From an uncultured Gammaproteobacteria bacterium (lineage in GTDB: Bacteria > Pseudomonadota > Gammaproteobacteria > Steroidobacterales > BM003), in contig CAWAOM010000006.1 in NCBI GenBank assembly GCA_963783695.1, positions 455,641 to 519,640 on the forward strand: a stretch of 64,000 bases of DNA, read 5' to 3'. Positions 33,285-46,893 of the stretch are shown in pieces. The notes below the pieces were generated by a model, which did not search any database, was not told the DNA's origin, and saw only the letters and a program-made list of their open reading frames with translations. Position 1 is the stretch's first letter, and the number at the start of each line of letters is the position of its first letter. The position numbers were made by a program, and so were the translations under genes.

Positions 33285-33746
33285 ATGCGCGAAACCATTC
33301 GTCAAAAATGCGCACCGGCTCTTGCTGCCGTCGCATCGATTATTCTCACCTCGGGCTGTGCGACCACCGATTCCGGCACGCTGGATCCGGTCTGGGGCCC
33401 ATTTAGCGAGCGCCAACCGGTACCGGTAATCTACATCAACGCGACAATCTCGGGTCCCGGCGGCGACATCAGCCTCACCACCCCGGACGGCGTCACCTGC
33501 ACCGGCAGATGGGGCCGGCAGGCTGGCGGCCAGCCATTGTTTTCCGAAAGCAACGTTACCGGCGGCAAGGGTCTCGAGTTTTATCGCGCCTGGTCGACCT
33601 ACACCGGAAGCAGCAATCTCGCCAAGGCCACGGCAACCTGTTCTGACGGCTCGACCTTTTCAGCTGAGTTTCTTGCCGTCCGCGGGTCGCCCGGCGTAGG
33701 CATCGCTGGCGACACGCATGGCAATGTCTATCGCGTCACCTTCTAG
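33285..33746 (+). CDS. Hypothetical lipoprotein
   Basis: The ORF at 33210 was trimmed to MRETIRQKCAPALAAVASIILTSGC (lipobox LTSGC). I recognise no family. Confidence 0.6.
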   Translation: MRETIRQKCAPALAAVASIILTSGCATTDSGTLDPVWGPFSERQPVPVIYINATISGPGGDISLTTPDGVTCTGRWGRQAGGQPLFSESNVTGGKGLEFYRAWSTYTGSSNLAKATATCSDGSTFSAEFLAVRGSPGVGIAGDTHGNVYRVTF

Positions 33747-34780
33747 CGCGTAGCGCCGGCGGCCGCAGCCTGGCGGCGGCCGCGGAAACGGCCGGGCGCC
33801 TCTCCGGTCCAACCGCGGAAGGCACGGCTGAAGTTGGCAGGATCACCGAAGCCGAGGCGAAACGCTATTTCCGCGACCTGCAGCTCGCTGTGCAGCAACA
33901 GGTCGACTGCCAGTGCACGATGCACCTCATCGAGAATTCTCTGATAAGAGGTGCCGGCACGTTTCAGGCGGCGTATCAGGGTTCGCGGGGAAATGAACTG
34001 CGAGCGCGCGACCTCCGCCAGCCCCGGCATTTTACCGCGCGCGGCCAGCAGTTCGGCCCGCACCGCAACTTCGATATCCGATTCGCCGGTCACTCGCCGC
34101 AGTAGTTCGCGACAGCGACTGGTCGCGGCGCGATGCAACTGATCGTCATACAGGGCGCAGGACTCGTCCAGCCATTCGCTCGGAAGCCGCAGACAATGGC
34201 CGTCGCCAGCAAACCGCAACTCGCCATCGAATGCCGCTCGCAAAGCCTCATCATAATCCGGTGCCGCATACGCAAGCTCCAGGCGCGCGCCCTCCAGTTT
34301 GCGGCCGACGATGCCCGCCACGATTGACTGCAGCGCCAGGAACATCGTCTCCAGCAACAGTTCGCGAACCGGCCCCAGGTCTACCGACTCGACCACCTTG
34401 ACGGTGTAGTAGTCGACACCGGGTTGCCCGCTAAGCCAGACGTAGGGCGCGCGAATTTCGGTATAACGCATAAGCACATCGAGGGCGGTGCGCAGATCCG
34501 GCGCGGTAGCCGCGGCCACCCCCAGCGGCCCGTGGGAGGTGATCGACAGATGTGAGGCAAGCCCCAGATGCCAGCCCGGCGCTCCCAGGCGCATTGATAG
34601 GTTGCGCATCAGATCGCGCATTGTCGCCAGACTGACATAGGCGTCGCTTTGCCGCAGACGCGACAGCGTCAGTCCCGTGCCGGCGAGCATGGCCCGATGA
34701 TCGTTTTCGTCCAGCAAGAAATCCCGCAATGCAATTCGGAGATAGGTCACGGGCATTTGCTTTTTCTGAAGATCGGACAC
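33743..34780 (-). CDS. AraC-family transcriptional regulator
   Basis: 345-aa ORF with a C-terminal double HTH (...ISPRTLIRRLKRAGTSYQRILDEV...VAEIAFRLGFGDPANFSRAFRGWTGEAPGRFR). It is divergent from alkB. Confidence 0.88.
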   Translation of the reverse strand: MSDLQKKQMPVTYLRIALRDFLLDENDHRAMLAGTGLTLSRLRQSDAYVSLATMRDLMRNLSMRLGAPGWHLGLASHLSITSHGPLGVAAATAPDLRTALDVLMRYTEIRAPYVWLSGQPGVDYYTVKVVESVDLGPVRELLLETMFLALQSIVAGIVGRKLEGARLELAYAAPDYDEALRAAFDGELRFAGDGHCLRLPSEWLDESCALYDDQLHRAATSRCRELLRRVTGESDIEVAVRAELLAARGKMPGLAEVARSQFISPRTLIRRLKRAGTSYQRILDEVHRALAVDLLLHSELQVAEIAFRLGFGDPANFSRAFRGWTGEAPGRFRGRRQAAAAGATR

Positions 34781-34922
34781 TATTGCGCTGCAATATAATG
34801 ACGAATAGCCATGGAAGTGGCAGTATATGACAATCTGGTGTCAGTTATAACGCTCCACCCTCGTGCGCTCTCACCTCATAGTGGACCCATCGACGCCCGT
34901 TAGCCGAGAGGGAAGCTGCACC

Positions 34923-36116
34923 GTGAAAACCTACGTTCTGGAACATCCCGAACACGGACGGATTACCTACACCGACCGCAAACGCTATCTGTGGCTGCTT
35001 TCCACGGCCTACCCGTTGCTGCCGTTCCTGGGCATGTATATCGCGGTCAAAACGGGTTCTGACTGGGGACTGTGGCTGCCGCTCGCGCTGGTCTATGTGG
35101 TCGTACCGATCCTCGATTTTCTGTTCGGTCAGGACCAAAGCAATCCGCCCGAGGAGCTTGTGCCGCAGCTGGAAGAGGACCGCTACTATCGCGTGCTGAC
35201 TTACCTGACGGTTCCGATGCATTTCATCGCGCTGGTCGGCGGCGCATGGTACGTCGCGACCCAGCCGATCGGTATTGGCGGTTTCATTGCTCTGGCGCTA
35301 ACCGTCGGGCTGATGAGCGGGCTGGCCATTAACACCGGTCACGAACTCGGCCACAAGTCCACAAAACTGGAGCGCTTTTTGGCCAAGGTCGTCCTGGCGG
35401 TCCCTGCCTACGGCCACTTCACGCTTGAACATACGCTCGGCCATCACGGCGCGGTCGCGACACCCGAGGACACCGCGAGTTCGCGTTTTGGCGAGTCCAT
35501 CTACAAGTTCGCCCGGCGCGAGATGCCCGGGGGCATCCGCCGCGGCTGGCAACTCGAGGCTCAGCGTCTCCAGCGCAAGGGTAGAAAAGCGTGGTCGGTT
35601 CACAATGAGATTCTGCAGTCCTATGCGCTGACGTTCGTCCTCTACACCGGCCTGATCGCGGCCTTCGGCTGGATCGTAGTGCCTTTCCTCGCGGTCCAGA
35701 CCTTTTATGCCTGGTGGCAACTTACCAGCGCAAACTATGTCGAGCATTACGGCCTGCTGCGCGAGAAAAAGGCGAATGGCCGATACGAGCGTTGCAAGCC
35801 ACACCATTCGTGGAATGCAAATCACATCTTCTCCAACGTCATCCTGTTTCATCTCGAGCGGCACTCGGATCATCACGCCTGGGCCGCCCGGCGCTACCAG
35901 TCGCTGCGCAACTTCGACAATGTCCCCGAGTTGCCCAACGGTTATTTCGGCATGTGGTCGATTGCCCTGATTCCATGGGCCTGGCGCAAGGTCATGGATC
36001 CCAAGGTTATCGAACTGGCGAAAGGAGACATGACGAAGGTGAACATCGATCCCGATGTGCGCGAACAGGTAATGGCGCGCTACCACCAAACGCGCCAGCC
36101 CGCCATGGCTGCATGA
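34923..36116 (+). CDS. alkB: Alkane 1-monooxygenase (integral-membrane di-iron hydroxylase)
   Basis: Collinear similarity to Pseudomonas putida GPo1 AlkB as I recall it. It has histidine boxes HELGHK, EHTLGHH and LERHSDHH, plus NYVEHYGL. The ORF track starts at 34863; I prefer the GTG at 34923, which is preceded by GAGGGAAG. Confidence 0.93.
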   Translation: MKTYVLEHPEHGRITYTDRKRYLWLLSTAYPLLPFLGMYIAVKTGSDWGLWLPLALVYVVVPILDFLFGQDQSNPPEELVPQLEEDRYYRVLTYLTVPMHFIALVGGAWYVATQPIGIGGFIALALTVGLMSGLAINTGHELGHKSTKLERFLAKVVLAVPAYGHFTLEHTLGHHGAVATPEDTASSRFGESIYKFARREMPGGIRRGWQLEAQRLQRKGRKAWSVHNEILQSYALTFVLYTGLIAAFGWIVVPFLAVQTFYAWWQLTSANYVEHYGLLREKKANGRYERCKPHHSWNANHIFSNVILFHLERHSDHHAWAARRYQSLRNFDNVPELPNGYFGMWSIALIPWAWRKVMDPKVIELAKGDMTKVNIDPDVREQVMARYHQTRQPAMAA

Positions 36117-36173: not shown

Positions 36174-36200
36174 AGCCCTATCTGAAGATAGGGCTTTTCC
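36174..36200 (+). terminator. Rho-independent terminator after alkB
   Basis: AGCCCTATC-TGAA-GATAGGGCT, a perfect 9-bp stem followed by TTTTCC. Confidence 0.7.
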
Positions 36201-36492
36201 TTCGGCCTACCCGAAACATCAATTCTCTTCTTCTTCGCGCCCGCGAAACCCGCCTAGGCATAATTCACTAGCCTCGCGGGACCAATCCGAATTGTCGCGT
36301 CAGCGCCACCCCCTATCCTCGAAAAACGCAATGCGCGCACTCAGAGCGCAGCGGAAACCGAACAACAGGGGAGTTTCGTGGGTTTCCTAATTAGCAGGGC
36401 AACTGAACCCGCCAGGTCACTCGACCCCGGCATCACGAATCTCCGTCATTTTTCTGCAATTCCCACACATCTTTTTGGAAGGAGGTAACGCC

Positions 36493-36846
36493 ATGGCTGC
36501 GAGACACAGAGCGCTAGCAGGCGCATTGGCCTGCGCGGTCGCCATGAGTGTTTTTGGCACCGCACAGGCTGCCGATTCGGATGGCCAGGCCCTGTTCAAG
36601 GACAACTGCAATAGCTGTCACGGCGATGGGTCGCCAAACGGTGAATACACACCGATGACGTTGATACAGGATCAGTGGACGCGCTTTTTCGAGCGCAAGT
36701 TCGAGCGCACCCACAAAGACGTCATGGATCCGGCCAACGGCAATCGCCCGGTAACCGAAACCATCTCACCCGAGGAACTGGAGGCGATCAAGAAATTTGC
36801 CGTGGATCACGCCGCCGACTCCGAAAACCCGATGACCTGTGGTTAA
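36493..36846 (+). CDS. Small periplasmic monoheme c-type cytochrome
   Basis: The ORF at 36475 was trimmed to the ATG at 36493, which has GGAGG about 8 nt upstream. It has a signal peptide (..AMSVFGTAQA/AD) and a single CNSCH heme motif near the mature N-terminus. The precursor is 117 aa. Confidence 0.8.
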   Translation: MAARHRALAGALACAVAMSVFGTAQAADSDGQALFKDNCNSCHGDGSPNGEYTPMTLIQDQWTRFFERKFERTHKDVMDPANGNRPVTETISPEELEAIKKFAVDHAADSENPMTCG

Positions 36847-36860
36847 AAAAGGGGACAATC

Positions 36861-38645
36861 ATGTTACGCAAAAGCATCTTTACCGCAGTCGCAGCGCTGG
36901 CGGTGATCATGGGTGCGCCACCGCCTGCTGCGTGGGCGGACTCCGATGAACTGAGCATGGAGGAACTGACTCAGCAGGTCGAAGCCATGCAAGCGCAAAT
37001 GGCCGTGTTGATGCAACGCCTCGAAGCCATGCAGCAGGAAGGCGAAGGCCTGCGCGAGGAAACCACCGTCCTGACCGAGGACATGGAGGACATGGACGAC
37101 CGGATGATGGTCGCCGAACGCCATGCGGTACTCGACAAGGTCAGGTTCAGTGGCGACTTCCGGACCCAGGTGCACTCGATCCAGGGCTCGATGATCGACC
37201 GGATCGACGGCATCAATGTGCAAAAAGACCTGGTCAATACGCTGTTTTTCTTCGGCGCGACAGGCTCGCCGCCGCAAACGCCGGACCTGAGCGATGTCGA
37301 CTCTTTCATACAGAACAATTACGACGACTATCTCTACTATCTCGACAACGTCGTCAGCTTCGACTTTATTCAGCAACAGGTTGGCGGACTGATGGAGCAG
37401 AATCCCGACATGGCTAACCAGCTGCTGCAGTTGCTGGCATCGCAGCAGGACAGCTTCATCGAGGGTTATGACCACGACAACGACATCGTCTACACCAGCC
37501 GGCTGCGCTTCCGCACCCAGGCCGACGTGGCCGAAGACGTTGTCTTCGACGGCCGCCTGTCGATGTACAAGGTCTGGGGCGACTCGACCGGCGTGCAGGT
37601 ATTCAACGGTCAGCCGACGTCGATCAACTGGGACGGCACCACATCCAACGTGCCGAATTCCGATATTCTCCGGGTCGAGCGCGCCTACTTTACCTGGAGC
37701 GATATTGCCGACCTGCCGATGTATCTCTCTGTCGGCCGCAGACCCTCGACAGGTGGTGTCCCGCTGAACTTCCGTGAAGACGAGCCACGCGGCGGCACGC
37801 CGATCGGCTCGTTGTTCAATTATCAGTTCGACGGTATCACCTGGGGCTATCACCTGAGCGATATCTCGACGTTCCGTATCTGCTACGGCCTTGGTTACGA
37901 GTCCGAGTGGGGTAATGGCAGCGAATATTTCGATTCGAACAATCGGCTCGACGACGCCTGGTTTATCGGCGCCGTCTGGGATGTATGGGACACCGACCGG
38001 ATGTTCGTCCAGTTGAATGCCGCCACGGCCCAGGATATTACCGATGGATTCAATGGCACCGTCGTGATTCCGTTCGACCCGGTCTCGGGTCAGAGCGCAC
38101 CGGCGCCGGCGGTAATCCGCTACACGCCGACCGACAACATTGGTGACATGAATCTCGCCGGCGTAGTGGTCGTGCGTCACGACGGACCGTTCGATTACTT
38201 CGCGAGCCTCAACTACAGCGAATCCGACCCGCAGAATGTCACGACGCCGTTCGGCGGACTGTTCGCGGATCCTTTTGACACGCCTGATGACGAAAACGGC
38301 CACATGTACTACCTCGGTGGGCGCTACAATTTCCCCAACGGCGTAACGAAGCTGGGTCTCGAGTTCAACCATGGTTCGAAGTACTGGTTCAACTTCGCGC
38401 TGGCCGAGGACGACTTTTTCGCCCCCAAGACCAGCACCCGCGGCGACGTGTGGGAGGTCTATCTCACGCACCGAATCCGCGACCGTTTCATCGTGAAGCT
38501 GGACTACATGTATTACGACTATGACTACTCCGGTTCCGGCTGGTTGCTGGGCGCACCGAAAGACGTGGACGATCTCAATATTCACGCCACTCCGGTCTAC
38601 GAAGATGCCAGCAAGGTCATGGCGAGCTTCCACGCACGCTTCTAG
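36861..38645 (+). CDS. Outer-membrane beta-barrel protein with N-terminal periplasmic coiled coil (resembles my recollection of the DUF3373 family)
   Basis: The ORF at 36675 was trimmed to the ATG at 36861, 14 nt after the cytochrome stop and preceded by AAAGGGG. It has a signal peptide (..PPAAWA/DS) and a heptad-repeat Met/Gln/Glu-rich segment. About 500 aa of alternating aromatic/polar strands follow, ending ...SFHARF (the C-terminal Phe OMP signature). Confidence 0.7.
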   Translation: MLRKSIFTAVAALAVIMGAPPPAAWADSDELSMEELTQQVEAMQAQMAVLMQRLEAMQQEGEGLREETTVLTEDMEDMDDRMMVAERHAVLDKVRFSGDFRTQVHSIQGSMIDRIDGINVQKDLVNTLFFFGATGSPPQTPDLSDVDSFIQNNYDDYLYYLDNVVSFDFIQQQVGGLMEQNPDMANQLLQLLASQQDSFIEGYDHDNDIVYTSRLRFRTQADVAEDVVFDGRLSMYKVWGDSTGVQVFNGQPTSINWDGTTSNVPNSDILRVERAYFTWSDIADLPMYLSVGRRPSTGGVPLNFREDEPRGGTPIGSLFNYQFDGITWGYHLSDISTFRICYGLGYESEWGNGSEYFDSNNRLDDAWFIGAVWDVWDTDRMFVQLNAATAQDITDGFNGTVVIPFDPVSGQSAPAPAVIRYTPTDNIGDMNLAGVVVVRHDGPFDYFASLNYSESDPQNVTTPFGGLFADPFDTPDDENGHMYYLGGRYNFPNGVTKLGLEFNHGSKYWFNFALAEDDFFAPKTSTRGDVWEVYLTHRIRDRFIVKLDYMYYDYDYSGSGWLLGAPKDVDDLNIHATPVYEDASKVMASFHARF

Positions 38646-38655
38646 GAGCAGAAAA

Positions 38656-40116
38656 ATGGCATTCCGTCTCCTCGTAACAATCCTGATTACAGCCACGATG
38701 AGCACGGCTGTGCAGGCAGAGCCGAAACAGTGGCGTCACGCCAAATTTTTCGACGAGTACGAAGGCACCAGCACATGCCTGAGATGCCACGAAGAGGAGG
38801 CGGAGTCTTTCTTCCATAGCCAGCACTACCAGTGGCGCGGTGAGACTCCCGCCGTCGTAAACAGCGACGGCGAGGGTCTCGGTAAACTATCGATGATTAA
38901 CGATTTCTGCACCAACCCGAGCGGTAAGCAGTGGATCGGCAAGGTCAAGAACGCGGATGGCAAAACGCTCGCCAAAGGATGCTCCACCTGCCATGCCGGT
39001 CTCGGCAAGGTGCCCGCTCGCGAAGTCAGTCGTGAGCAACTGGAAAATATCGACTGCCTGATCTGTCACAACTCCGGCTATCGGCGAGACCTGTACGCAA
39101 ACGACGACGGCAGTTGGGAGTGGCGGCCGATACTGTGGAAAAACAAGGAAGGCATGAACGCAGTCGGTCAGCGTGTATCTCTGCCGAACCGAACCATGTG
39201 TCTGCGTTGTCATTCAGCCTCAGGCGGCGGTCCGAATTACAAACGCGGCGACCTCGAATACATTCTCAAGGACCCGCCGCGTAAACACGATGTGCACATG
39301 GCGACGAATGCCAACGGCGGCCCCGACCTGTTGTGCATCGACTGTCATGGCGGTGACGGCCACCGCGTCCTCGGCCGCGGCGTCGATCTCGCCGCAAGCG
39401 ACAGCCCGGACCAACGCCTGTCCTGCGAGGGCAGCTGCCACGGCAGCACCCCACACAAGGTCGCAGCCCTGGACGGCCATACCAGCCGTGTCTACTGCAC
39501 CACCTGTCATATCCCGCGGTTCGCGAAAAGCGAACCCACCGATATGTTCCGCGACTGGTCCAATATTTCGTTCTCCGAGGAAAAGGGAAAATACACCTAC
39601 AGCGTGCGGCGACTGGAAGCGGACGTGGAACCGGAATACGCCTGGTTCAATGGCGAAAGCTGGTTGCAGCTTGCGGGCAAACCCGTACGCCGCGACAAAA
39701 ACGGAATCATCGAAATGGTCCTGCCGGAAGGCTCCCGCGATGATCCGGATGCGCGCATCGTCGGCTTCAAGGTACACCAATCGATGATGCCGGTATTGAA
39801 GGGCAAGGACTGGCTGCTGCCGATTCACACCGAAGAGGTCTATGCAGACGGCAACGTCGACAAGGCTGTACGCGAAGCGGCGCGTGAATTCTACGGGCTC
39901 GAAAACATCGATTATTCATGGCAAGAAACCAAACGTTACATGGGTATCTACCATGGCGTCGCTCCGGCGGAAGAAGCACTCCGGTGTCTCGATTGTCATG
40001 GCCCGGATGGGCGAATGAAGTGGACCCAACTCGGCTATGAAGGCGATCCGCTAGAGCAACGCTTCGGCAGCGCAGCCGGCGGGGCAACCGAGACCTCCAT
40101 CGCCGCAAAGAACTGA
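38656..40116 (+). CDS. Octaheme c-type cytochrome (7 CXXCH + 1 CX3CH), Sec-exported
   Basis: The ORF at 38521 was trimmed to the ATG at 38656, 10 nt after the barrel gene stop and preceded by AGGAG. It has a signal peptide (..MSTAVQA/EP). The heme motifs are CLRCH, CSTCH, CLICH, CLRCH, CIDCH, CEGSCH, CTTCH and CLDCH. Confidence 0.85.
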   Translation: MAFRLLVTILITATMSTAVQAEPKQWRHAKFFDEYEGTSTCLRCHEEEAESFFHSQHYQWRGETPAVVNSDGEGLGKLSMINDFCTNPSGKQWIGKVKNADGKTLAKGCSTCHAGLGKVPAREVSREQLENIDCLICHNSGYRRDLYANDDGSWEWRPILWKNKEGMNAVGQRVSLPNRTMCLRCHSASGGGPNYKRGDLEYILKDPPRKHDVHMATNANGGPDLLCIDCHGGDGHRVLGRGVDLAASDSPDQRLSCEGSCHGSTPHKVAALDGHTSRVYCTTCHIPRFAKSEPTDMFRDWSNISFSEEKGKYTYSVRRLEADVEPEYAWFNGESWLQLAGKPVRRDKNGIIEMVLPEGSRDDPDARIVGFKVHQSMMPVLKGKDWLLPIHTEEVYADGNVDKAVREAAREFYGLENIDYSWQETKRYMGIYHGVAPAEEALRCLDCHGPDGRMKWTQLGYEGDPLEQRFGSAAGGATETSIAAKN

Positions 40117-40141
40117 CTCGATTGCATTGGTTTACAATCGT

Positions 40142-40174
40142 CCCGGGCGCTACCACTGTGGCGCCCGGGTTTTT
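40142..40174 (+). terminator. Rho-independent terminator after the octaheme cytochrome gene
   Basis: CCCGGGCGC-(10 nt)-GCGCCCGGG followed by TTTTT, starting 25 nt after the stop codon. Confidence 0.7.
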
Positions 40175-40187
40175 CGTGGGGGTCTTC

Positions 40188-41252
40188 ATGCGCAAGGTAT
40201 TGCTGGTCGCGGTCCTGATCGGAGCTACGATAGCGGCATTCGCGCTGGTGCCGGGCCGGGTTGACCCGGCTGCCTGGCTGCCTCCTCCGGCGCCGCCGCT
40301 TGGCGGCGCCTTTGCCCCCAACGACTCGCTCAAAAGTGCCGAGCTTCTTGCGCTCGGCCAGGTTTATGGTCCCGAGGACGTCGCGGTTGATGACGAGGGC
40401 CGGGTTTACGGCGGTACCCAGGACGGAAAAATCATCCGCGTACTGGCTGACGGCGCGGTCGAGACCTTCGCGGAGACAGGTGGCCGGCCGCTCGGCCTGC
40501 ACTTCGACGGCGCAGGCAATCTGATCGTTGCCGATGCCTATCGCGGCCTACTATCACTCAGCCCGGGCGGCGACATCGCCGTTCTGACAACGGCCGCCGA
40601 TGGCGTCCCATTCGGCTTCACCGACGATCTCGATATCGGCAGCGACGGCACGATCTATTTCAGCGATGCAAGCAGTAAATTCGACCAGGCCGAATACATG
40701 CTGGACCTGCTCGAAATGCGTCCGCACGGACGACTGCTGGCTTACTATCCCGCAACCGGCGAGACCCGCGTATTACTAGATAGCCTGTACTTCGCCAACG
40801 GTGTCGCACTGTCGCGGGACGAGTCCTTTGTGCTCGTCAACGAAACCTGGGCATACCGGATCCGGCGGCTGTGGCTGCGCGGCGACAGGGCCGGCACCTC
40901 TGACGTTTTCGTCGACAACCTGCCCGGGTTCCCGGACGGAATCTCGGCCAACCGCAATGGCCGGTTCTGGCTGGCACTGCCGACCACGCGGCTGACCAGC
41001 ATCGACAGAATGCATCCGCACCCGTGGATCAAACGGCTCTCGTCACGCCTGCCGGATTGGCTCAAACCGAAACCCGTCGCATATGGACTCGTGGCGGAAC
41101 TCGACGAACAGGGGAATGTACTTGCCAGCTACCATGACAGCGATGGCCTCCACCTCCAGGAAATCACCTCGGTGGAGGAGCACGGTGGCTACGTCTACCT
41201 CGGCACGCTGCACGGAGACCGCATCGGCCGGCTGAAACTGCCCGAACGTTAG
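40188..41252 (+). CDS. Membrane-anchored strictosidine-synthase-like / SMP-30-gluconolactonase-type six-bladed beta-propeller protein
   Basis: The ORF at 40122 was trimmed to MRKVLLVAVLIGATIAAFALV (N-terminal anchor). Motifs GPEDVAVDDEGRVY, GRPLGLHFDGAGNLIVADA, FTDDLDIGSDGTIYFSDAS and YFANGVALS are typical of the family. Confidence 0.75.
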   Translation: MRKVLLVAVLIGATIAAFALVPGRVDPAAWLPPPAPPLGGAFAPNDSLKSAELLALGQVYGPEDVAVDDEGRVYGGTQDGKIIRVLADGAVETFAETGGRPLGLHFDGAGNLIVADAYRGLLSLSPGGDIAVLTTAADGVPFGFTDDLDIGSDGTIYFSDASSKFDQAEYMLDLLEMRPHGRLLAYYPATGETRVLLDSLYFANGVALSRDESFVLVNETWAYRIRRLWLRGDRAGTSDVFVDNLPGFPDGISANRNGRFWLALPTTRLTSIDRMHPHPWIKRLSSRLPDWLKPKPVAYGLVAELDEQGNVLASYHDSDGLHLQEITSVEEHGGYVYLGTLHGDRIGRLKLPER

Positions 41253-41286: not shown

Positions 41287-44200
41287 CTACCCGGCCTTGC
41301 GCCGGGAGCGCAAAAACCGGCGCAGGGCTTTCGCCGTGTGCGAACCAGAGCGTGTTTTCGCTACCTGCTCGGGGGTACCCGAAGCGACGATCCGACCGCC
41401 GTCCGCTCCGCCTTCCGGGCCCAGATCGAGCACCCAGTCGGCTTCCGCCACGACATCGAGGTTGTGCTCGATCACAACGACGGAATTACCGGCATCCACC
41501 AGTCGATGCAATACCGTAATAAGTTTTTCCACATCGGCCATGTGCAGACCCACAGTGGGCTCATCAAGAACGTAAAGACACGGCTTGCTGCGGCGACCTC
41601 GCGGGCCCGGCAATTCGGGCCGCGCTTTGGCCAGTTCGGTAACCAGTTTGATGCGCTGCGCCTCCCCTCCGGACAAGGTCGGACTTGGCTGGCCGAGGGT
41701 CAGATAGCCGAGACCGACATCCTTCATCAACTGCAGCGCATGGCTGACCTTGGGATGCACCGCAAAGAACTCGACGGCTTCGTCGACGCTCATCGCGAGC
41801 ACCTCCCCGATATTGCGGCCGCGAAAGACCACCTCGAGCGTTTCCGCAGCGAAACGCGCGCCGCGGCAAACCTCGCAGCCGACACGAACATCTGGCAGAA
41901 AACTCATCTCGATCCGTTTTACACCCTGCCCCTCGCAGGCCGAACATCGTCCGCCCGAAACGTTGAACGAAAAACGTCCCGGCGAATAACCGCGCAATCG
42001 CGCTTCTTCAGTTCGGGCGAACAGACGTCGTACCTCATCCCAGATTCCGACATACGTGGCGGGACAGGACCGCGGCGTTTTCCCGATCGGCGTTTGGTCG
42101 ACCTCGAGAATACGCCCGAGACCGTTCCAGCCCTCGATCGCCCGACAACCTGCAAGCTTCGGTTTTCTGCCCGATTTCGCTTTCCGAGCAAGCAGCCCCC
42201 TGACATTGCGATGCAGGACATCACGCACAAGCGTACTCTTGCCACTGCCGCTGACACCCGTCACGCACACAAGCGCGGCAAGCGGAAATCGCACATCGAC
42301 ATCGGACAAATTATGAAGTGACGCTGCCACGATAGTGAGCCCCGTCGCAGCGTTATCGCCATTGATCTCGCGGCGCGTCCCGCGCAGTGGATGGCGCAAT
42401 GGCGCGGCCATCATGCGGCCGGTGACGGAGTCGGGGTCACGCAGCAATTCCTCGATGGTGCCGGCCGCAACGACTTCGCCGCCGCGAACACCCGCGCCCG
42501 GCCCAAGATCGATGACATGCCGGGCCCGCCGGATCGTATCCTCGTCGTGCTCCACGACCACAACAGTGTTGCCTTTGCGCGCAAGACGCTCCAGCGCGTC
42601 GAGCAGCCTGCGATTGTCACGGGTATGAAGACCGATGGTCGGCTCGTCCAGGATGTAACAGACACCGCGAAGATTCGATCCGAGTTGAGCGGCAAGTCGA
42701 ATACGCTGTGCTTCGCCACCCGACAATGTCGGCGCCGCCCGATCCAGCCCGAGGTAGCCAAGCCCGACCTGGTTTAAAAATTTCAGGCGGGTCCTCAGTT
42801 CGGCAAGAATGTCGCGCGCAATTTCGCGATCACGGGCCGCCAGACGAAGGCGCGCGAAACGCCGCTCCGCCTGCGCCACCGACAGCGCGGTCATTTCCGT
42901 GATACTGACATCCTGATAACGAATCGCGCGCGCCTCGCGATTCAGTCTCGCGCCGTCGCAAACACTGCAAACCGCATGTTCCGTGCCCGCCTCATCGCTG
43001 AGCCACATATTCTCTTCGCCGCTTTGTTCGGCATCAAAGTCCTGCAGTTGCAAGCCGGTCCCAAAACAGGCCGGACACCAGCCATGGCGGGAGTTAAACG
43101 AAAACAACCGCGGGTCTGGCTCCGCAAAACTGCTGGCGCAACCCGGGCAGGAGCGGTTTATCGAAAACAGATTGTCGGCTTTCCTGCGCCCGCTCGCGGC
43201 GCAAACCAGGACATTGCCCTTGCCAATCTGCAGCGCGGCATCCAGCAGCGCACCCAGCCTCGCGTCGTTGCCAGGCGTGACGTCTACCTCGCCAACGGGC
43301 AGTTCAATGTCGTGCTCCCTGAAGCGGTCAAGCCGCGGCCATGGCTGTACCGGCACCATATCGCCGTCGACGCGCAATTCCGCGTACCCCCGCGACTCCG
43401 CCCAGCGCGCCAGGTCGGTGTAGTAGCCCTTGCGCGCAACCACCAGCGGTGCCAGGACTCGCACCTTGCGGCCACGGTACTTTCTGAGTATCCCCGCCCG
43501 GATCTGGTCGCGCGTCTGGGGTTCGATCGGCAGGTCGCAATCGGGGCAGTACTGCGTGCCGAGCTTGACGAACATCAGGCGGAGAAAGTGATATATCTCG
43601 GTTAACGTTGCGACGGTGCTTTTGCGTCCGCCGCGACTGGTTCGTTGTTCAATTGCCACGGTTGGAGGAATACCGGTGATTGCATCGACGTCCGGGCGGC
43701 TGGCCGGTTGCACAAACTGGCGGGCGTAAGCATTCAGGGACTCGAGATAACGGCGCTGGCCTTCGGCAAACAGGATGTCGAAGGCAACCGTGCTCTTGCC
43801 GCTGCCACTGACGCCGGTAATGACGGTAAAGCCGTCGCGCGGAATATCGAGATCGACGTTTTTGAGGTTGTGCTCGCGCGCATTGCGGACAGAAATCATG
43901 GCGTTGCGGTCAGCCGAATACGCTGTCGCCGCTTCGGCGACGCTGCGCGGCAGTCGCGCCCGGTCAGCCAGTTCTTGTTGCGAGATACGGTACGCGGCGA
44001 GCGCGCGACCGGTTTGACTCGCCGCGCAGTCAAGTAAATCCGCGACCGTTCCGGCAAAGACCAGTTCGCCCCCGCCCTCGCCGCCTTCCGGACCGAGATC
44101 AATTACCCAGTCGGCCGCGCCAATGACATCGAGATTGTGTTCAATAACAACGATTGCATGACCATCGTCCAGCAGCTGATCAAATGCCCAAAGCAGCCGT

Positions 44201-46893
44201 GCAATGTCATCAAAATGAAGTCCGGTCGTCGGCTCGTCGAAAAGGAACAGCGTCGGCAAGCCCGCGGCCGAGCGGCGTGATTTACCGCGCCCGCCGGCTA
44301 AATGGGCCGCGAGCTTCAGACGCTGCGCTTCACCGCCGGATAGAGTCGGTACGGGTTGCCCGAGCCGCAGATAATCCAGTCCAACCGCAGCCAGTGGCTC
44401 AAGGCGTCGCCTTACCTCTGCATCATGGCCGAAATAGGTAATTGCTTCCGCCACGGTCAGCTCGAGCACGTCCGCCACCGACAATGCACGCCGCGCCACC
44501 ATGGCATCCTCATGCAGCGGCGGCACCAGTGTTACGTCGAGCACTTCCGGCCGATAGCGCCGCCCGTTGCAATCGGCGCAACGCAGGTACACATCGGACA
44601 GAAACTGCATTTCCACGTGTTCGAAACCGTTGCCGCCGCACGCCGGACAGCGGCCGTCGCCGGTATTGAAACTAAACGTCCCAGCGGTATATCCACGTTC
44701 CCTAGACAGCGGCTCTGCGGCAAACGCTTTGCGAATTGCAGCGAATGCGCCGACGAAACTCGCCGGGTTCGAGCGTGTCGTTTTGCCGATGGGAGACTGA
44801 TCGACCATCACCACATCGCCAACATGATCCATCCCGCGCAATTCGCGATGAGCGCCGGATGGATCTTGCGGCTTGCCCAGTTTTTCCAGTGCGGCGCGAT
44901 ACACCACATCCTGCACGAGCGTCGATTTTCCCGAACCGCTTACGCCGGTAACGCAAACCAGTCCATGCAATGGAAACTCGACGTCCACGTTCTTGAGATT
45001 GTTCTCGGCGGCAGCGGCTACCCGCAGTCGCGGCGTGCGATTGTCGACTGCCACGCGTGCTCTGACGCCACGATCAACGACCCGTTCGCTGCGCAAGAAC
45101 CTGGCGGTCGGCGACACGTCGGACTCGAGCAGCGCCTGGGGCGTACCGAAAAACACGATTTCGCCACCGCGTTCGCCCGGCCCCGGGCCCATGTCGAGAA
45201 TCCTGTCTGCGGCCACCATAATCTGCGGATCATGCTCCACGACGAGCAGCGTGTTTCCGGCATCGCGCAGGCGCGTAAGGATGCCGACAATCCGTTCGAC
45301 ATCGCGCGGATGCAGACCGATACTCGGCTCGTCGAGCACGAACAGCGTATTGACCAGCGAAGTGCCCAACGCGGTGGTCAGATTGATGCGCTGGACCTCG
45401 CCTCCGGACAGCGTCCGTGACTGGCGATCAAGCGTCAGATAACCGACACCGACCTCCTCGAGATACTGCAGACGAATACGAATCTCCGCGAGCAGACGCG
45501 CCACCGCCTCGTCCATCGGTGGCGGCAATTCGAGTCCAGCGAAAAAACGCCGACAGCGTTCGATCGGCAGGCACATCACATCATGGACATTCAGCCCTGG
45601 AAGAGAATCGAAACGGCGCGGTTTGATCGCTACGCCTTGCGGCCGGAATCGCCGCGCCGGCGCAAGGCAGGTATCAGCATCGCCGCGACTGCCGAGGCGC
45701 CACAACAGACTATCGGTTTTCAGACGGGCCCCGGCACATCCCGCGCAGACGTTGTAGGCCCGGTATTTGGATAGCAGCACCCGAATGTGCATCTTGTAGG
45801 ACTTGGTTTCGAGCCAGGCGAAAAAACGCCGGACGCCATAGAACTTGCCGTCCTCCCAACTGCCCTCGCCCTCCAGTACCCATTGCCGATGGCGTTCGTC
45901 CAGCTCCGACCATGGCCGGTCGGCAGGTATGCTGCGCAGACGCGCAAACCGGATCAGGTCGTCCTGGCACTCGCGGTAGCTCTTTGATTGCCACGGCCTG
46001 ACCGCACCCTCGGCGAGGCTCAGCGATCCATCCGGCACGACCAGGCGGAAATCGATGTCCATGCTGCGACCAAAACCGCGGCACTCCTCGCAGGCACCAA
46101 GCGGGGAGTTGAACGAAAAGCGGTTGGACAAGGGGTCATCGTAATGGATATCGCAGGCGGCGCAGTGCAGATCGGCGGAGAAGCGGATCGTTTGCAGCGG
46201 CGGGTCCAGCAGCGCCACTTCGATCCGGCCGGAACCGTGTTGCAGTGCCGCCTCGACCGCTTCGAGCAGACGCTCACGATTGCGTTTTTCGAGCCGCAGC
46301 CGATCCTGCACGACCTGCAGCCGATCCGCAGCCAGCTTATCGACCCGAACGTAACCCTGCTGGGCAAGGTAGGCGCGAATCTCCGCCTCGGTGAAATTAT
46401 CCGGAATAGCGACGTCGAACGTTACACTCGCGCGAACGCCCCGTCCGTCACCGGACTTTGCTGTTCGCATCAGCGCGCGGACGATCCGTTGCGGATCATC
46501 CCGCACCACCTCGGTACCGCAGTCGCGACAAAACAGCCGTGCCGCACGGGCAAACAAAAGCTTGATGTGATCGTTGAGTTCGGTCATTGTCCCGACCGTC
46601 GAGCGCGAGGTCCGGACAGGATTCGTCTGATCTATGGCTATGGCCGGCGGGATCCCGTCGACACGTTCGGCACGCGGCTTGTCCATACGATCGAGAAACT
46701 GCCGCGCATAGGGCGAGAAGGTCTCGACATAACGGCGCTGCCCTTCCGCATAAACCGTGTCGAACGCCAGCGACGATTTGCCCGAACCGCTGACCCCGGT
46801 GACGACGATCAGCTCATTGAGGGGCAGATCGATGTCGAGATTGCGCAGATTGTTCTGCGCAGCGCCCCTGATTGATATGCAGTGGTTTGACAC
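41287..46893 (-). CDS. Tandem-fused double UvrA-like ABC ATPase (1868 aa; two complete UvrA units in one ORF)
   Basis: It has four Walker A motifs (GVSGSGKS at aa 33, 650, 1027 and 1546) and four LSGGE signatures (aa 495, 851, 1390 and 1740). Cys-pair zinc modules occur in both units. Unit 2 begins at aa ~999 with a typical UvrA N-terminus (MISVRNAREHNLKNVDLDIPRD). Confidence 0.9.
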   Translation of the reverse strand: MSNHCISIRGAAQNNLRNLDIDLPLNELIVVTGVSGSGKSSLAFDTVYAEGQRRYVETFSPYARQFLDRMDKPRAERVDGIPPAIAIDQTNPVRTSRSTVGTMTELNDHIKLLFARAARLFCRDCGTEVVRDDPQRIVRALMRTAKSGDGRGVRASVTFDVAIPDNFTEAEIRAYLAQQGYVRVDKLAADRLQVVQDRLRLEKRNRERLLEAVEAALQHGSGRIEVALLDPPLQTIRFSADLHCAACDIHYDDPLSNRFSFNSPLGACEECRGFGRSMDIDFRLVVPDGSLSLAEGAVRPWQSKSYRECQDDLIRFARLRSIPADRPWSELDERHRQWVLEGEGSWEDGKFYGVRRFFAWLETKSYKMHIRVLLSKYRAYNVCAGCAGARLKTDSLLWRLGSRGDADTCLAPARRFRPQGVAIKPRRFDSLPGLNVHDVMCLPIERCRRFFAGLELPPPMDEAVARLLAEIRIRLQYLEEVGVGYLTLDRQSRTLSGGEVQRINLTTALGTSLVNTLFVLDEPSIGLHPRDVERIVGILTRLRDAGNTLLVVEHDPQIMVAADRILDMGPGPGERGGEIVFFGTPQALLESDVSPTARFLRSERVVDRGVRARVAVDNRTPRLRVAAAAENNLKNVDVEFPLHGLVCVTGVSGSGKSTLVQDVVYRAALEKLGKPQDPSGAHRELRGMDHVGDVVMVDQSPIGKTTRSNPASFVGAFAAIRKAFAAEPLSRERGYTAGTFSFNTGDGRCPACGGNGFEHVEMQFLSDVYLRCADCNGRRYRPEVLDVTLVPPLHEDAMVARRALSVADVLELTVAEAITYFGHDAEVRRRLEPLAAVGLDYLRLGQPVPTLSGGEAQRLKLAAHLAGGRGKSRRSAAGLPTLFLFDEPTTGLHFDDIARLLWAFDQLLDDGHAIVVIEHNLDVIGAADWVIDLGPEGGEGGGELVFAGTVADLLDCAASQTGRALAAYRISQQELADRARLPRSVAEAATAYSADRNAMISVRNAREHNLKNVDLDIPRDGFTVITGVSGSGKSTVAFDILFAEGQRRYLESLNAYARQFVQPASRPDVDAITGIPPTVAIEQRTSRGGRKSTVATLTEIYHFLRLMFVKLGTQYCPDCDLPIEPQTRDQIRAGILRKYRGRKVRVLAPLVVARKGYYTDLARWAESRGYAELRVDGDMVPVQPWPRLDRFREHDIELPVGEVDVTPGNDARLGALLDAALQIGKGNVLVCAASGRRKADNLFSINRSCPGCASSFAEPDPRLFSFNSRHGWCPACFGTGLQLQDFDAEQSGEENMWLSDEAGTEHAVCSVCDGARLNREARAIRYQDVSITEMTALSVAQAERRFARLRLAARDREIARDILAELRTRLKFLNQVGLGYLGLDRAAPTLSGGEAQRIRLAAQLGSNLRGVCYILDEPTIGLHTRDNRRLLDALERLARKGNTVVVVEHDEDTIRRARHVIDLGPGAGVRGGEVVAAGTIEELLRDPDSVTGRMMAAPLRHPLRGTRREINGDNAATGLTIVAASLHNLSDVDVRFPLAALVCVTGVSGSGKSTLVRDVLHRNVRGLLARKAKSGRKPKLAGCRAIEGWNGLGRILEVDQTPIGKTPRSCPATYVGIWDEVRRLFARTEEARLRGYSPGRFSFNVSGGRCSACEGQGVKRIEMSFLPDVRVGCEVCRGARFAAETLEVVFRGRNIGEVLAMSVDEAVEFFAVHPKVSHALQLMKDVGLGYLTLGQPSPTLSGGEAQRIKLVTELAKARPELPGPRGRRSKPCLYVLDEPTVGLHMADVEKLITVLHRLVDAGNSVVVIEHNLDVVAEADWVLDLGPEGGADGGRIVASGTPEQVAKTRSGSHTAKALRRFLRSRRKAG

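What the first reader, a model, noticed from the sequence alone, without database searches (positions are those of the whole stretch)
36201..40174. Terminator-bounded three-gene operon: monoheme cytochrome c, coiled-coil outer-membrane barrel and octaheme cytochrome
Seen in sequence:
- Three plus-strand genes (36493-36846, 36861-38645, 38656-40116) are separated by only 14 and 10 nt.
- Each has its own Shine-Dalgarno sequence and a Sec signal peptide.
- The unit is bracketed by clean stem-loop/T-tract terminators at 36174-36200 and 40142-40174, with a ~290-nt untranslated upstream region.
- Gene 1 carries one CXXCH. Gene 2 has the hallmarks of a large OM beta-barrel (alternating strands, terminal Phe). 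Gene 3 carries eight heme motifs.

Established knowledge:
- Outer-membrane electron conduits (MtrAB, PioAB, MtoAB plus the monoheme MtoD, Geobacter Pcc/Ext clusters) pair a periplasmic multiheme cytochrome with a barrel, and often with a small soluble carrier.
- Cyc2 fuses a monoheme cytochrome to a barrel.

Inference:
- This operon has the same three-part logic, but its parts do not look like MtrA/MtrB: heme density is lower and the barrel has a coiled-coil extension. It may be an uncharacterised trans-outer-membrane electron-transfer module.
- Alternatively, the barrel resembles my recollection of the uncharacterised DUF3373 family. The ~50-kDa 8-heme protein matches the size and heme count of the octaheme tetrathionate reductase (OTR) family, whose physiological role is itself unresolved.
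- By eye the operon also uses more A/T-ending and rare codons (aga, cta, gga) than the flanking genes. I did not compute this.
Basis: partly seen in the sequence, partly recalled or inferred. Interest (0 to 1): 0.8.

Follow-up and report, generated by a model that had tools for sequence, protein, structure and literature searches.

The report
Octaheme reductase operon with cytochrome–porin pair
This is a real three-gene operon, a distant and very widespread relative of the Shewanella "octaheme tetrathionate reductase" operon, and its small cytochrome and outer-membrane porin turn out to be a conserved partnership that nobody seems to have described and that could help settle what this enzyme family does.

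Summary
Three co-oriented genes sit 14 and 10 nt apart between two good terminators. They encode a monoheme cytochrome c, a DUF3373/Omp50-family porin and an octaheme cytochrome.

The MtrAB-like conduit reading and the codon-usage remark are not supported.

- **Barrel:** about 16 strands, the size of an ordinary porin.
- **Octaheme protein:** an enzyme. It keeps the lysine haem ligand and active-site cysteine of the solved Shewanella OTR.
- **Codon usage:** the same as in the flanking genes.
- **Same triad elsewhere:** the same gene order flanks canonical OTR in Shewanella algae and Marinobacter, at 32-37% identity for each protein. It also occurs in 66 of 68 related loci from at least six phyla.

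New here: the cytochrome–porin pair is the conserved core. In one deep clade the cytochrome ends in an invariant cysteine and the barrel carries one invariant cysteine that appears to face the lumen. That clade sits next to OTR, PhsA/PsrA-like molybdoenzymes or a thiol peroxidase. The cysteine-less sister clade sits next to chemoreceptors or c-di-GMP enzymes.

Most likely function: a periplasmic reductase system for sulfur compounds (less likely nitrogen compounds), with its own porin and electron carrier.

The parts
36174..36200 (+). Intrinsic terminator of the upstream alkB-like gene. It marks the 5' boundary of the unit.
   Evidence: 9-bp stem with a 4-nt loop followed by TTTTCCTT. Folding energy -15.3 kcal/mol, z -2.6.
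36201..36492 (+). 292-nt non-coding leader and promoter region. It contains the inverted repeat GGAAACC(36353)...GGTTTCC(36381-36387).
   Evidence: No ORF, no Rfam hit and no sigma-70 consensus. The repeat block is identical in the 85%-identical relative L004, but its fold is no better than shuffled sequence. Function unknown.
36493..36846 (+). g1: exported monoheme c-type cytochrome, 117 aa. Haem site C39-H43 (36607-36621). Invariant C-terminal Cys116 (36838-36840) in the motif AADSE-P-TCG.
   Evidence: PF13442 31.6 bits against a cutoff of 27. The AF2 model has pLDDT 85, with only weak class-I cytochrome fold matches. All 73 tail sequences examined carry the cysteine (70 window-clade relatives plus the window, S. 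algae and Marinobacter). 37% identical to the cytochrome of the S. algae otr operon.
36861..38645 (+). g2: outer-membrane porin of the DUF3373/Omp50 family, 594 aa. Signal peptide; periplasmic coiled coil aa 33-92 (36957-37136); helical insert in loop 1, aa 117-193 (37209-37439); about 16 strands; a single Cys341 (37881-37883); C-terminal Phe.
   Evidence: PF11853 366 bits. PDB 10aw (Omp50) matches at 2e-14, including the coiled coil, but lacks the insert. AF2 model and DSSP. Foldseek best matches are 16-18-strand porins. Cys341 is present in 70 of 70 sequences (the window plus 69 relatives).
38656..40116 (+). g3: periplasmic octaheme cytochrome of the OTR family, 486 aa. Eight haem sites. Lys77 (38884-38886) corresponds to the OTR Lys56 haem ligand, and Cys85 (38908-38910) to OTR Cys64.
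   Evidence: PDB 1SP3 matches at 1.8e-55 over residues 33-471. PF11783 88 bits. TIGR04315 299 bits, below its cutoff of 375. K77 and C85 are invariant in 19 diverse homologues.
40142..40174 (+). Intrinsic terminator closing the operon.
   Evidence: 12-bp stem with 10 G-C pairs followed by TTTTT. Folding energy -27.7 kcal/mol, z -3.2. The next gene starts at 40188.

Best explanation
**What it is**
- The locus is a self-contained operon for a periplasmic reductase system. It is a deeply divergent counterpart of the Shewanella SO_4142-SO_4143-otr operon.
- g3 is the enzyme: an octaheme cytochrome whose catalytic haem is ligated by a lysine, with a cysteine beside it.
- g2 is a roughly 16-strand Omp50-type porin with a periplasmic coiled-coil stalk.
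- g1 is the enzyme's dedicated small cytochrome.

**Inferred mechanism**
- A small inorganic substrate crosses the outer membrane through g2. [quoted passage not shown]
- The substrate is reduced at the lysine-haem of g3, with electrons handed over by g1.
- g1 and g2 act as a pair. The invariant C-terminal cysteine of g1 and the single lumen-facing cysteine of g2 suggest that the cytochrome's tail reaches into the periplasmic mouth of the pore, as a disulfide tether or a thiol relay for S-S-bonded substrates.

**Shown**
- Gene structure, family memberships, retained catalytic residues, barrel size, conservation of the triad, and the pattern of cysteines and neighbouring genes.

**Inferred**
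- The substrate, the direction of electron flow, physical contact between g1 and g2, and any chemistry at the cysteines.
For: **Family assignments and catalytic residues**

**Conservation of the triad**
- The same order occurs in 66 of 68 related loci with enough upstream DNA. These come from Gammaproteobacteria, Acidobacteriota, Krumholzibacteriia, Kiritimatiellae, Fibrobacterota and Planctomycetota.
- No fourth gene is conserved beside it.
- Canonical OTR of S. algae and Marinobacter has the same cytochrome-DUF3373-OTR order. All three proteins are 32-37% identical to the window's, so the unit has diverged as a block.

**Porin-sized barrel**

**The cytochrome-porin pair is the core**
- A g1-family gene directly precedes DUF3373 in most clades sampled from metagenomes.
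- In the clade that has both cysteines (35 of 35 pairs, plus 70 of 70 barrels and 73 of 73 cytochrome tails in the window clade and Shewanella-type operons), the third gene is OTR, a PhsA/PsrA-like molybdoenzyme (530-590 bits to NF012032) or a thiol peroxidase.
- The S. algae triad lies next to a true PhsA.

**Literature**
- otr of Ca. Sulfomarinibacter, the family that supplies seven of my loci, rose 36-fold after tetrathionate addition (PMC8528874).
- A Beggiatoaceae OTR homologue lies next to phs/psr genes (PMC6449678).
- The only partner tested for Shewanella OTR, STC, binds at Kd 1.6 mM (PMC4484225). That leaves room for a dedicated carrier.
Against: **No experiment bears on this locus.**

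**Doubts about the substrate**
- In Shewanella ANA-3 and MR-1, OTR is dispensable for tetrathionate respiration. Its best in-vitro activities are with nitrite and hydroxylamine (PMC12949373). The substrate is therefore open, and sulfite or nitrogen compounds remain possible.

**Doubts about the porin's role**
- The cytochrome-porin pair also occurs with no enzyme gene nearby, and next to chemoreceptors when it lacks the cysteines. A plain 'substrate pore' role does not explain why a cytochrome always accompanies the barrel.

**Limits of the cysteine evidence**
- On a tree of the barrels, the two cysteines map to a single gain or loss (Fitch changes 1 and 2). This is strict co-retention, not repeated covariation.
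- Some barrel clades with the cysteine have no g1 gene nearby.
- The lumen-facing orientation of Cys341 is inferred only from the alternation of residues in the strand.

**Other gaps**
- The distal haem ligand of g1 is unknown. Met55 is not conserved, and His74 or Cys116 are candidates.
- g3 scores below the curated OTR cutoff and carries a 14-residue insertion next to the active-site cysteine. Its specificity may differ from that of Shewanella OTR.
Confidence: 0.55

Rival explanations
1. **Split porin-cytochrome electron conduit or redox sensor, Cyc2-like in logic.** The monoheme cytochrome g1 docks in or at the 16-strand barrel g2 and exchanges electrons with something outside the cell. The octaheme protein g3 is the periplasmic sink or source.
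For: - The cytochrome-DUF3373 pair, not the enzyme, is the conserved core. It is found with quite different third genes, including chemoreceptors and GGDEF-EAL proteins, which would suit redox sensing.
- The parts list is the same as Cyc2: one haem plus a barrel of about 16 strands.
- Each partner carries a conserved cysteine.
- In Sulfomarinibacteraceae the triad lies beside a true MtrA-like and MtrB/PioB-like pair.
Against: - g1 is a separate soluble protein with its own signal peptide and no lipobox.
- The barrel lumen must also hold an 80-residue helical insert.
- g3 keeps a catalytic lysine-haem and cysteine, which is typical of an enzyme rather than a relay.
- No extracellular cytochrome is encoded.
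- No Fe or EET marker families hit.
- Homology to Cyc2 could not be tested.
Confidence: 0.18
2. **Nitrogen-oxide system.** g3 reduces nitrite and/or hydroxylamine to ammonium, for detoxification or ammonification. g1 is the electron donor and g2 an anion pore.
For: - Nitrite and hydroxylamine are the best in-vitro substrates of the OTRs studied. The fold is related to NrfA and HAO (PMC12949373, PMC4484225).
- The catalytic Lys is retained.
Against: - In my loci the neighbours of the Cys-type pair are sulfur-type enzymes (PhsA/PsrA-like, thiol peroxidase), never nitrogen-cycle genes.
- Tetrathionate induced otr in Sulfomarinibacter (PMC8528874).
- The three conserved cysteines have no obvious role in nitrite chemistry.
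Confidence: 0.15
3. **Oxidative direction.** g3 oxidises a reduced substrate (for example thiosulfate to tetrathionate) and passes electrons through g1 to the respiratory chain of an aerobic or facultative host.
For: - The window's host carries aerobic-type genes next door, such as an alkB-like hydroxylase.
- g1 resembles class-I cytochromes, which usually serve oxidases.
- The tetrathionate/thiosulfate couple is high, +198 mV (cited in PMC8528874).
Against: - Reported thiosulfate oxidase activity of OTRs is very low (PMC12949373).
- In Shewanella the operon is listed in the anaerobic Fnr regulon (PMC3424579).
- The ligation and potential of g1 are unknown.
Confidence: 0.08

Closest known systems
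Shewanella octaheme tetrathionate reductase operon (SO_4142 monoheme cytochrome c, SO_4143, SO_4144 otr; OTR structure PDB 1SP3)
   Same: - Same three genes in the same order, read here in S. algae and Marinobacter.
- Eight haem sites.
- The Lys haem ligand and the active-site Cys.
- The C-terminal ...TCG of the cytochrome.
- The single cysteine and the helical insert of the barrel.
   Different: - Only 32-37% identity per protein.
- g3 falls below the curated TIGR04315 cutoff (299 against 375 bits), has a 14-residue insertion next to the active-site Cys, and has CX3CH at haem site 6.
- The clade lives mainly in uncultured sediment and soil Gammaproteobacteria and Acidobacteriota, where every source calls it 'hypothetical'.
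Campylobacter jejuni Omp50 (PDB 10aw/10dn; TCDB 1.B.60/1.B.62 porins)
   Same: - N-terminal coiled coil followed by a porin-sized barrel.
- Pfam DUF3373 (PMC4827864).
   Different: - Omp50 lacks the roughly 90-residue helical insert after strand 1 and the cysteine in the strand.
- Its alignment with g2 is remote (E 2e-14).
MtrAB / PioAB / MtoAB(+MtoD) porin-cytochrome conduits
   Same: - An operon that combines a barrel, a multiheme cytochrome and a small monoheme cytochrome.
   Different: - The barrel is a different family and size (16 strands rather than 26; no PF11854 hit).
- The multiheme protein is a catalytic OTR-type enzyme, not an MtrA-type wire (TIGR03508 40 bits against 192).
- True MtrA-like and MtrB/PioB-like genes are recognised next to the triad in Sulfomarinibacteraceae, so the tools can tell the two apart.
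Cyc2 fused cytochrome-porin of iron oxidisers
   Same: - One c-type haem plus a barrel of about 16 strands. This matches the conserved g1-g2 core found here.
   Different: - Two separate polypeptides, each with its own signal peptide.
- Homology not tested.
- No link to iron in any neighbourhood examined.
Octaheme MccA/SirA sulfite reductase and pentaheme NrfA
   Same: - Related multiheme fold, with a catalytic haem that has an unusual ligand. A sulfite-reducing role has been proposed for OTR (PMC12949373).
   Different: - No match to MccA or NrfA family models above noise.
- The mcc and sir clusters carry different accessory genes. This last point rests on my own knowledge, not on a test here.
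Cysteine-arm sulfur carriers (SoxY C-terminal GGCGG; Sud of Wolinella)
   Same: - A conserved cysteine at or near a C-terminus of a periplasmic protein that works with a sulfur-compound oxidoreductase. This is a resemblance in logic only, from my own knowledge.
   Different: - No sequence relationship.
- g1 is a cytochrome.
- No evidence here that its cysteine carries sulfur.

Membership tests
OTR family (TIGR04315 / PF11783; type member S. oneidensis OTR, PDB 1SP3) | Full-length sequence homology to the solved OTR | tested here: met
   phmmer E 1.8e-55, query 33-471 against chain 14-438. PF11783 88.4 bits against a cutoff of 22.1.
OTR family (TIGR04315 / PF11783; type member S. oneidensis OTR, PDB 1SP3) | Eight covalent haem-binding sites in the conserved order | tested here: met
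   Seven CXXCH plus CX3CH at site 6. All eight align with the eight sites of 1SP3.
OTR family (TIGR04315 / PF11783; type member S. oneidensis OTR, PDB 1SP3) | Lysine (OTR Lys56) that ligates the catalytic haem, and the neighbouring Cys64 | tested here: met
   K77 and C85 align with them and are invariant in 19 homologues. Actual ligation is not observable here.
OTR family (TIGR04315 / PF11783; type member S. oneidensis OTR, PDB 1SP3) | Score above NCBI's curated cutoff for 'tetrathionate reductase family octaheme cytochrome' | tested here: not met
   299.3 bits against a cutoff of 375. It is a separate clade of the wider family.
OTR family (TIGR04315 / PF11783; type member S. oneidensis OTR, PDB 1SP3) | Tetrathionate, nitrite or hydroxylamine reductase activity | not testable with these tools
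   Needs purified protein.
DUF3373 / Omp50 porins (PF11853; PDB 10aw) | Pfam model above its gathering score | tested here: met
   366 bits against 26.1, covering profile positions 1-409 of 409.
DUF3373 / Omp50 porins (PF11853; PDB 10aw) | N-terminal coiled coil followed by a porin-sized beta-barrel ending in an aromatic residue | tested here: met
   Helices 33-92 and 16 strands by DSSP on an AF2 model of pLDDT 73. Foldseek best matches are AlgE, OprB, OmpF and MOMP. Omp50 aligns over the coiled coil and the barrel. The protein ends in ...HARF.
MtrAB / PioAB / MtoAB outer-membrane conduits | MtrB/PioB-type barrel (PF11854, about 26 strands) | tested here: not met
   No PF11854 hit. About 16 strands. 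No MtrB among the best fold matches.
MtrAB / PioAB / MtoAB outer-membrane conduits | MtrA/DmsE-family decaheme partner | tested here: not met
   TIGR03508 scores 40.4 bits against a cutoff of 192.2, over residues 37-143 only. The protein has eight haems and a catalytic site.
MtrAB / PioAB / MtoAB outer-membrane conduits | Cytochrome threaded through the barrel | not testable with these tools
   Only single chains can be predicted here.
Cyc2 fused cytochrome-porins | Monoheme cytochrome domain and barrel in one polypeptide | tested here: not met
   Two genes, each with its own Shine-Dalgarno sequence and signal peptide.
Cyc2 fused cytochrome-porins | Sequence homology to Cyc2 | not tested
   No Cyc2 model in the libraries offered and no reference sequence in hand.
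Class I c-type cytochromes (PF13442 / PF00034) | Family model above cutoff, with a single N-terminal CXXCH | tested here: met
   PF13442 31.6 against 27 bits; PF00034 24.2 against 21.3 bits.
Class I c-type cytochromes (PF13442 / PF00034) | His/Met axial ligation | tested here: inconclusive
   The only well-conserved Met (M55) is replaced in close relatives and absent in the wider family. His74 and Cys116 are alternatives. Fold matches are weak (best E 0.06).

The most novel reading that the evidence does not exclude
The small cytochrome and the Omp50-type barrel form a previously unrecognised outer-membrane module. The cytochrome's C-terminal cysteine reaches the single cysteine lining the pore. 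Together they capture S-S-bonded sulfur (tetrathionate, polysulfide, perhaps elemental sulfur) at the outer membrane and hand it, along with electrons, to periplasmic reductases such as OTR or Psr/Phs-type enzymes. A cysteine-less sister version feeds chemoreceptors and c-di-GMP enzymes as a sensor. If so, this would be the thiol-bearing outer-membrane protein long postulated for sulfur mobilisation, and it would explain why the physiological substrate of OTR has been missed in assays with the enzyme alone.
Probability: 0.15. Interest if true: 0.85.

Novelty: new variant of a known kind. Interest (0 to 1): 0.6.

Why it matters
**An open question about OTR**
- OTR has had a crystal structure since 2004, but a 2026 study still states that its physiological function has never been established.
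- That study, and the interaction work before it, looked at the enzyme alone or with general Shewanella carriers. Neither mentions the co-encoded cytochrome or porin.

**What this analysis adds**
- The enzyme nearly always travels with a dedicated monoheme cytochrome and a special porin, across at least six phyla and in hundreds of species-level genomes.
- The cytochrome-porin pair is itself a conserved unit. In one deep clade it keeps a cysteine in each partner and is linked to sulfur-type reductases.

**Experiments this makes possible**
- Knock out SO_4142 and SO_4143.
- Make the Cys-to-Ser variants.
- Look for a cytochrome-porin adduct.

**Ecological relevance**
- The window's clade is common in marine-sediment Acidobacteriota and Gammaproteobacteria that are implicated in cycling sulfur intermediates. 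Its function therefore bears on sediment sulfur budgets.

Tried and rejected
- **Foreign origin by codon usage:** rejected. CAI and GC3 match the flanks. The whole region is syntenic at 85% with two related MAGs.
- **Riboswitch or known RNA in the 292-nt leader:** none found. The conserved inverted repeat folds no better than shuffles.
- **Sigma-70 promoter:** none found.
- **A fourth conserved gene (membrane anchor, regulator, maturation factor):** none across 80 loci, only neighbours specific to single clades.
- **g3 as an MtrA-like wire, or g2 as an MtrB-like sheath:** rejected.
- **Met55 as the haem ligand of g1:** rejected as a family feature.
- **Cysteine covariation as statistical proof:** the raw table (35/35 against 1/19; an earlier tally gave 32/32 against 1/20, Fisher p 2.6e-13) collapses to a single event on the barrel tree. 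I report it as co-retention only.
- **Structure of g1 with an alignment of locus translations:** Redone with proteins from the representative search.
- **Distant g1 relatives:** one was next to unrelated genes (DUF4136, an MCP on the other strand) and three sat on contigs too short to read, so the pairing is not universal for remote relatives.
- **Literature searches:** searches for DUF3373, SO_4142 and SO_4143 gave no functional study of the partners.

Full report
**1. The observation**

The three ORFs exist as described: g1 36493-36846, g2 36861-38645 and g3 38656-40116, all on the + strand, separated by 14 and 10 nt. Each has a purine-rich ribosome-binding site. Each N-terminus looks like a Sec signal peptide with an AxA cleavage site and no lipobox; this is read from the sequence, since no predictor was available.

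They are 36174-36195 (-15.3 kcal/mol, z -2.6) and 40142-40169 followed by TTTTT (-27.7 kcal/mol, z -3.2). The first ends the upstream alkB-like gene. The next gene downstream starts at 40188.

The 292-nt leader has no sigma-70 consensus and no Rfam match.

g1 has one CXXCH. g3 has seven CXXCH and one CX3CH (C257-H262), and the eight sites line up with the eight haem sites of the solved OTR.

CAI is 0.69, 0.76 and 0.70, against 0.686 +/- 0.044 for 17 flanking genes, and GC3 lies within the flank range. The whole neighbourhood is syntenic at about 85% nucleotide identity with two gammaproteobacterial MAGs, one of them labelled Chromatiales.

**2. What the three proteins are**

*g1.* It passes the Pfam thresholds for class-I cytochromes c (PF13442, PF00034), but its confident AF2 model (pLDDT 85) has only weak fold matches (best E 0.06).

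*g2.* It is a full-length DUF3373 protein (PF11853, 366 bits). A relative has been solved: the 50-kDa outer-membrane protein (Omp50) of PDB 10aw. That structure aligns both over the N-terminal coiled coil and over the barrel, so the coiled coil is a trait of the family.
- The AF2 model (pLDDT 73) shows a signal peptide, helices 33-92 and a first strand.
- A well-predicted helical insert (residues 117-193) follows, then 15 more strands. That makes 16 in all, with both termini on the periplasmic side.
- The best structural matches are 16- to 18-strand porins: AlgE, OprB, OmpF, MOMP and OmpM1.
- Omp50 lacks the helical insert.

*g3.* It aligns end to end with Shewanella OTR (PDB 1SP3, E 1.8e-55). 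Counting along that alignment, OTR Lys56 (the haem ligand) and Cys64 correspond to K77 and C85, and both are invariant in 19 diverse homologues. g3 scores 299 bits on NCBI's OTR model, below the cutoff of 375. It also carries a 14-residue insertion between the active-site Cys and haem site 2. It therefore belongs to the OTR superfamily but to a separate clade that no source has named.

**3. The triad elsewhere**

A scan of one genome per species found at least 578 relatives of g3. Among the best 80 loci, 66 of the 68 with enough upstream DNA have g1, g2 and g3 in the same order. They come from Gammaproteobacteria (Woeseiaceae, Halieaceae, Chromatiales), many Acidobacteriota (Thermoanaerobaculia, Holophagae, Blastocatellia, Ca. 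Sulfomarinibacteraceae), Krumholzibacteriia, Kiritimatiellae, Fibrobacterota and a planctomycete. No further gene is conserved beside the triad.

I then looked at canonical OTR genes. In Shewanella algae and Marinobacter hydrocarbonoclasticus the OTR gene is preceded by a 108-aa cytochrome c and a DUF3373 protein, in the same order. In Malonomonas the OTR gene stands alone. The window's three proteins are 37, 36 and 32% identical to the S. algae ones, so the unit has diverged as a block.

In S. oneidensis these genes are SO_4142, SO_4143 and SO_4144. SO_4142 is listed as a periplasmic monoheme cytochrome of unknown role (PMC5789149). SO4142, SO4143 and otr all appear in an Fnr regulon list (PMC3424579).

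I found no paper that discusses the partners. A 2026 study of OTR in Shewanella ANA-3 never mentions a monoheme cytochrome or a porin. 'DUF3373' occurs in only three papers of the library, none about OTR.

**4. The cytochrome-porin pair**

All 73 g1 sequences examined (70 window-clade relatives plus the window, S. algae and Marinobacter) end in ...AADSE-P-TC(G).

g2 contains a single cysteine, C341, and it is present in all 70 sequences compared (the window plus 69 relatives). It lies in the strand F-R-I-C-Y-G-L-G-Y-E. R339, C341, G343, G345 and E347 (invariant or nearly so) alternate with hydrophobic residues, so the cysteine most likely faces the lumen, a few residues above a short periplasmic turn. 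This orientation is an inference from the pattern, not from coordinates.

Sampling distant DUF3373 genes from metagenomes gave three results.
- A g1-family cytochrome gene sits directly upstream of the barrel gene in most clades.
- Wherever the cytochrome has a C-terminal cysteine (tails TCG, AKCK, AKCG, VPSC), the barrel has a cysteine at the C341 column: 35 of 35 pairs.
- Cytochromes without the cysteine (tails AAGLK, AAIPK, VPGL and others) pair with barrels that have Ala, Gly, Val, Ile or Met there: 18 of 19. In the one such barrel I aligned in full (L085), the helical insert is also missing.

This pattern is not repeated covariation. On a neighbour-joining tree of the barrels the two states form two sister groups, so the pattern reflects a single event. 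What is shown is strict co-retention of both cysteines across a very deep clade and their joint absence in its sister.

The third gene differs between the two groups.
- Pairs with cysteines are followed by OTR, by a PhsA/PsrA-like molybdoenzyme (three loci, 530-590 bits to the PhsA model, below its cutoff) or by a thiol peroxidase.
- The S. algae triad lies back to back with a true PhsA.
- Cysteine-less pairs are followed by methyl-accepting chemotaxis proteins or a GGDEF-EAL protein.
- Some barrel clades that carry the cysteine have no g1 gene nearby.

**5. How it most likely works**

The barrel is the size of an ordinary diffusion porin. g3 is a globular enzyme with its catalytic residues intact. 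g1 is a soluble periplasmic cytochrome. The simplest model is a periplasmic reductase with its own outer-membrane entry pore and its own electron carrier.

Four observations point to sulfur intermediates as the substrate.
- The gene company kept by pairs with cysteines.
- The position of the Beggiatoaceae OTR homologue next to phs/psr genes (PMC6449678).
- The 36-fold induction of Ca. Sulfomarinibacter otr by tetrathionate (PMC8528874). That family supplies seven of my loci, though I did not confirm that its gene is the same as those in my loci.
- Three conserved free cysteines, one per protein.

Against a simple tetrathionate role: OTR is dispensable for tetrathionate respiration in Shewanella, its best in-vitro substrates are nitrite and hydroxylamine, and a sulfite-reducing role has been proposed (PMC12949373). 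I therefore put 0.55 on the general model and treat the substrate as open.

The constant presence of a cytochrome beside the barrel, even where no enzyme gene follows, is not explained by a plain pore. It keeps alive a Cyc2-like 'split porin-cytochrome' reading, to which I give 0.18.

**6. Comparison with known systems and novelty**

By homology and architecture this is the OTR operon, in a divergent clade. It is not an MtrAB-type conduit. True MtrA-like and MtrB/PioB-like genes are recognised right next to the triad in Sulfomarinibacteraceae, which shows the tools can tell the two apart.

I rate it a new variant of a known kind.
- conservation of the triad across phyla;
- the cytochrome-porin pair as the core unit;
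- the split between pairs with cysteines next to reductases and cysteine-less pairs next to signalling proteins.

Together they give a direct experimental handle on the unresolved function of OTR.

Noticed in passing
L085 5001-8957; L093 3599-7670; L095 3582-7744; L124 3616-7470: Cysteine-less versions of the cytochrome-DUF3373 pair are followed on the same strand by methyl-accepting chemotaxis proteins (HAMP + MCPsignal) or a GGDEF-EAL protein. In L085 a CheA-type kinase also follows. This looks like a sensory use of the same two-protein module.
   Followed up: partly
L123 3743-8281; L130 2199-7330; L134 3488-7710; L160 2938-6105; L082 1-2244: Pairs with both cysteines but no OTR are followed by PhsA/PsrA-like molybdopterin oxidoreductases, or by a thiol peroxidase in L160. 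In S. algae a true PhsA (1354 bits) lies divergently next to the otr triad.
   Followed up: partly
L043 8755-9723 and L047 11545-11955 (also 13-14 other Sulfomarinibacteraceae and related loci): About 0.7 kb downstream of the triad these genomes encode an MtrA-like multiheme cytochrome (paired-CXXCH domains) and, further on, a fragment matching the MtrB/PioB porin family. A genuine porin-cytochrome conduit therefore sits next to the OTR operon in this one lineage.
   Followed up: partly
L112, L113, L116, L118, L121, L128: A different arrangement: DUF3373 first, then a gap that ranges from a few hundred bases (L118, L128) to about 2.2-2.8 kb (L112, L113, L116, L121), then a g1-family cytochrome ending in ...AKCK. 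The OTR-like multiheme gene follows within 20-100 nt in four loci and 1.2-2.1 kb further on in L118 and L128. CXXCH counts on the three ORFs examined were 8, 10 and 6.
   Followed up: no
L143 2668-3430; L162 2-629; L037 725-1776: Two tandem copies of the g1-family cytochrome precede the barrel gene in L143 and L162. L037 carries a second, apparently broken, cytochrome-DUF3373 copy upstream of the intact triad.
   Followed up: no
L056 6749-8335; L058 5393-6805: Two close g3 homologues (about 53-56% identity) have several kb of upstream DNA but no g1 or g2. They are solo copies within the window's clade.
   Followed up: no
window 36353-36387: Inverted repeat GGAAACC-N21-GGTTTCC in the leader, inside a block that is identical in the 85%-identical relative L004. 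Its predicted fold is no better than chance. It could be a regulator binding site.
   Followed up: partly
window 33743-36116: An AraC-family regulator (- strand) lies divergent from a membrane fatty-acid-desaturase/AlkB-type hydroxylase with histidine boxes (+ strand), immediately upstream of the operon.
   Followed up: partly
window 41287-46893 (- strand): A 1868-aa ORF with UvrA interaction and DNA-binding domains and several ABC ATPase P-loops spread along its length, roughly twice the size of ordinary UvrA.
   Followed up: no
window 40188-41252: A strictosidine-synthase-like / SMP-30 beta-propeller protein with a signal-peptide-like N-terminus begins 14 nt after the operon's terminator.
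   Followed up: no
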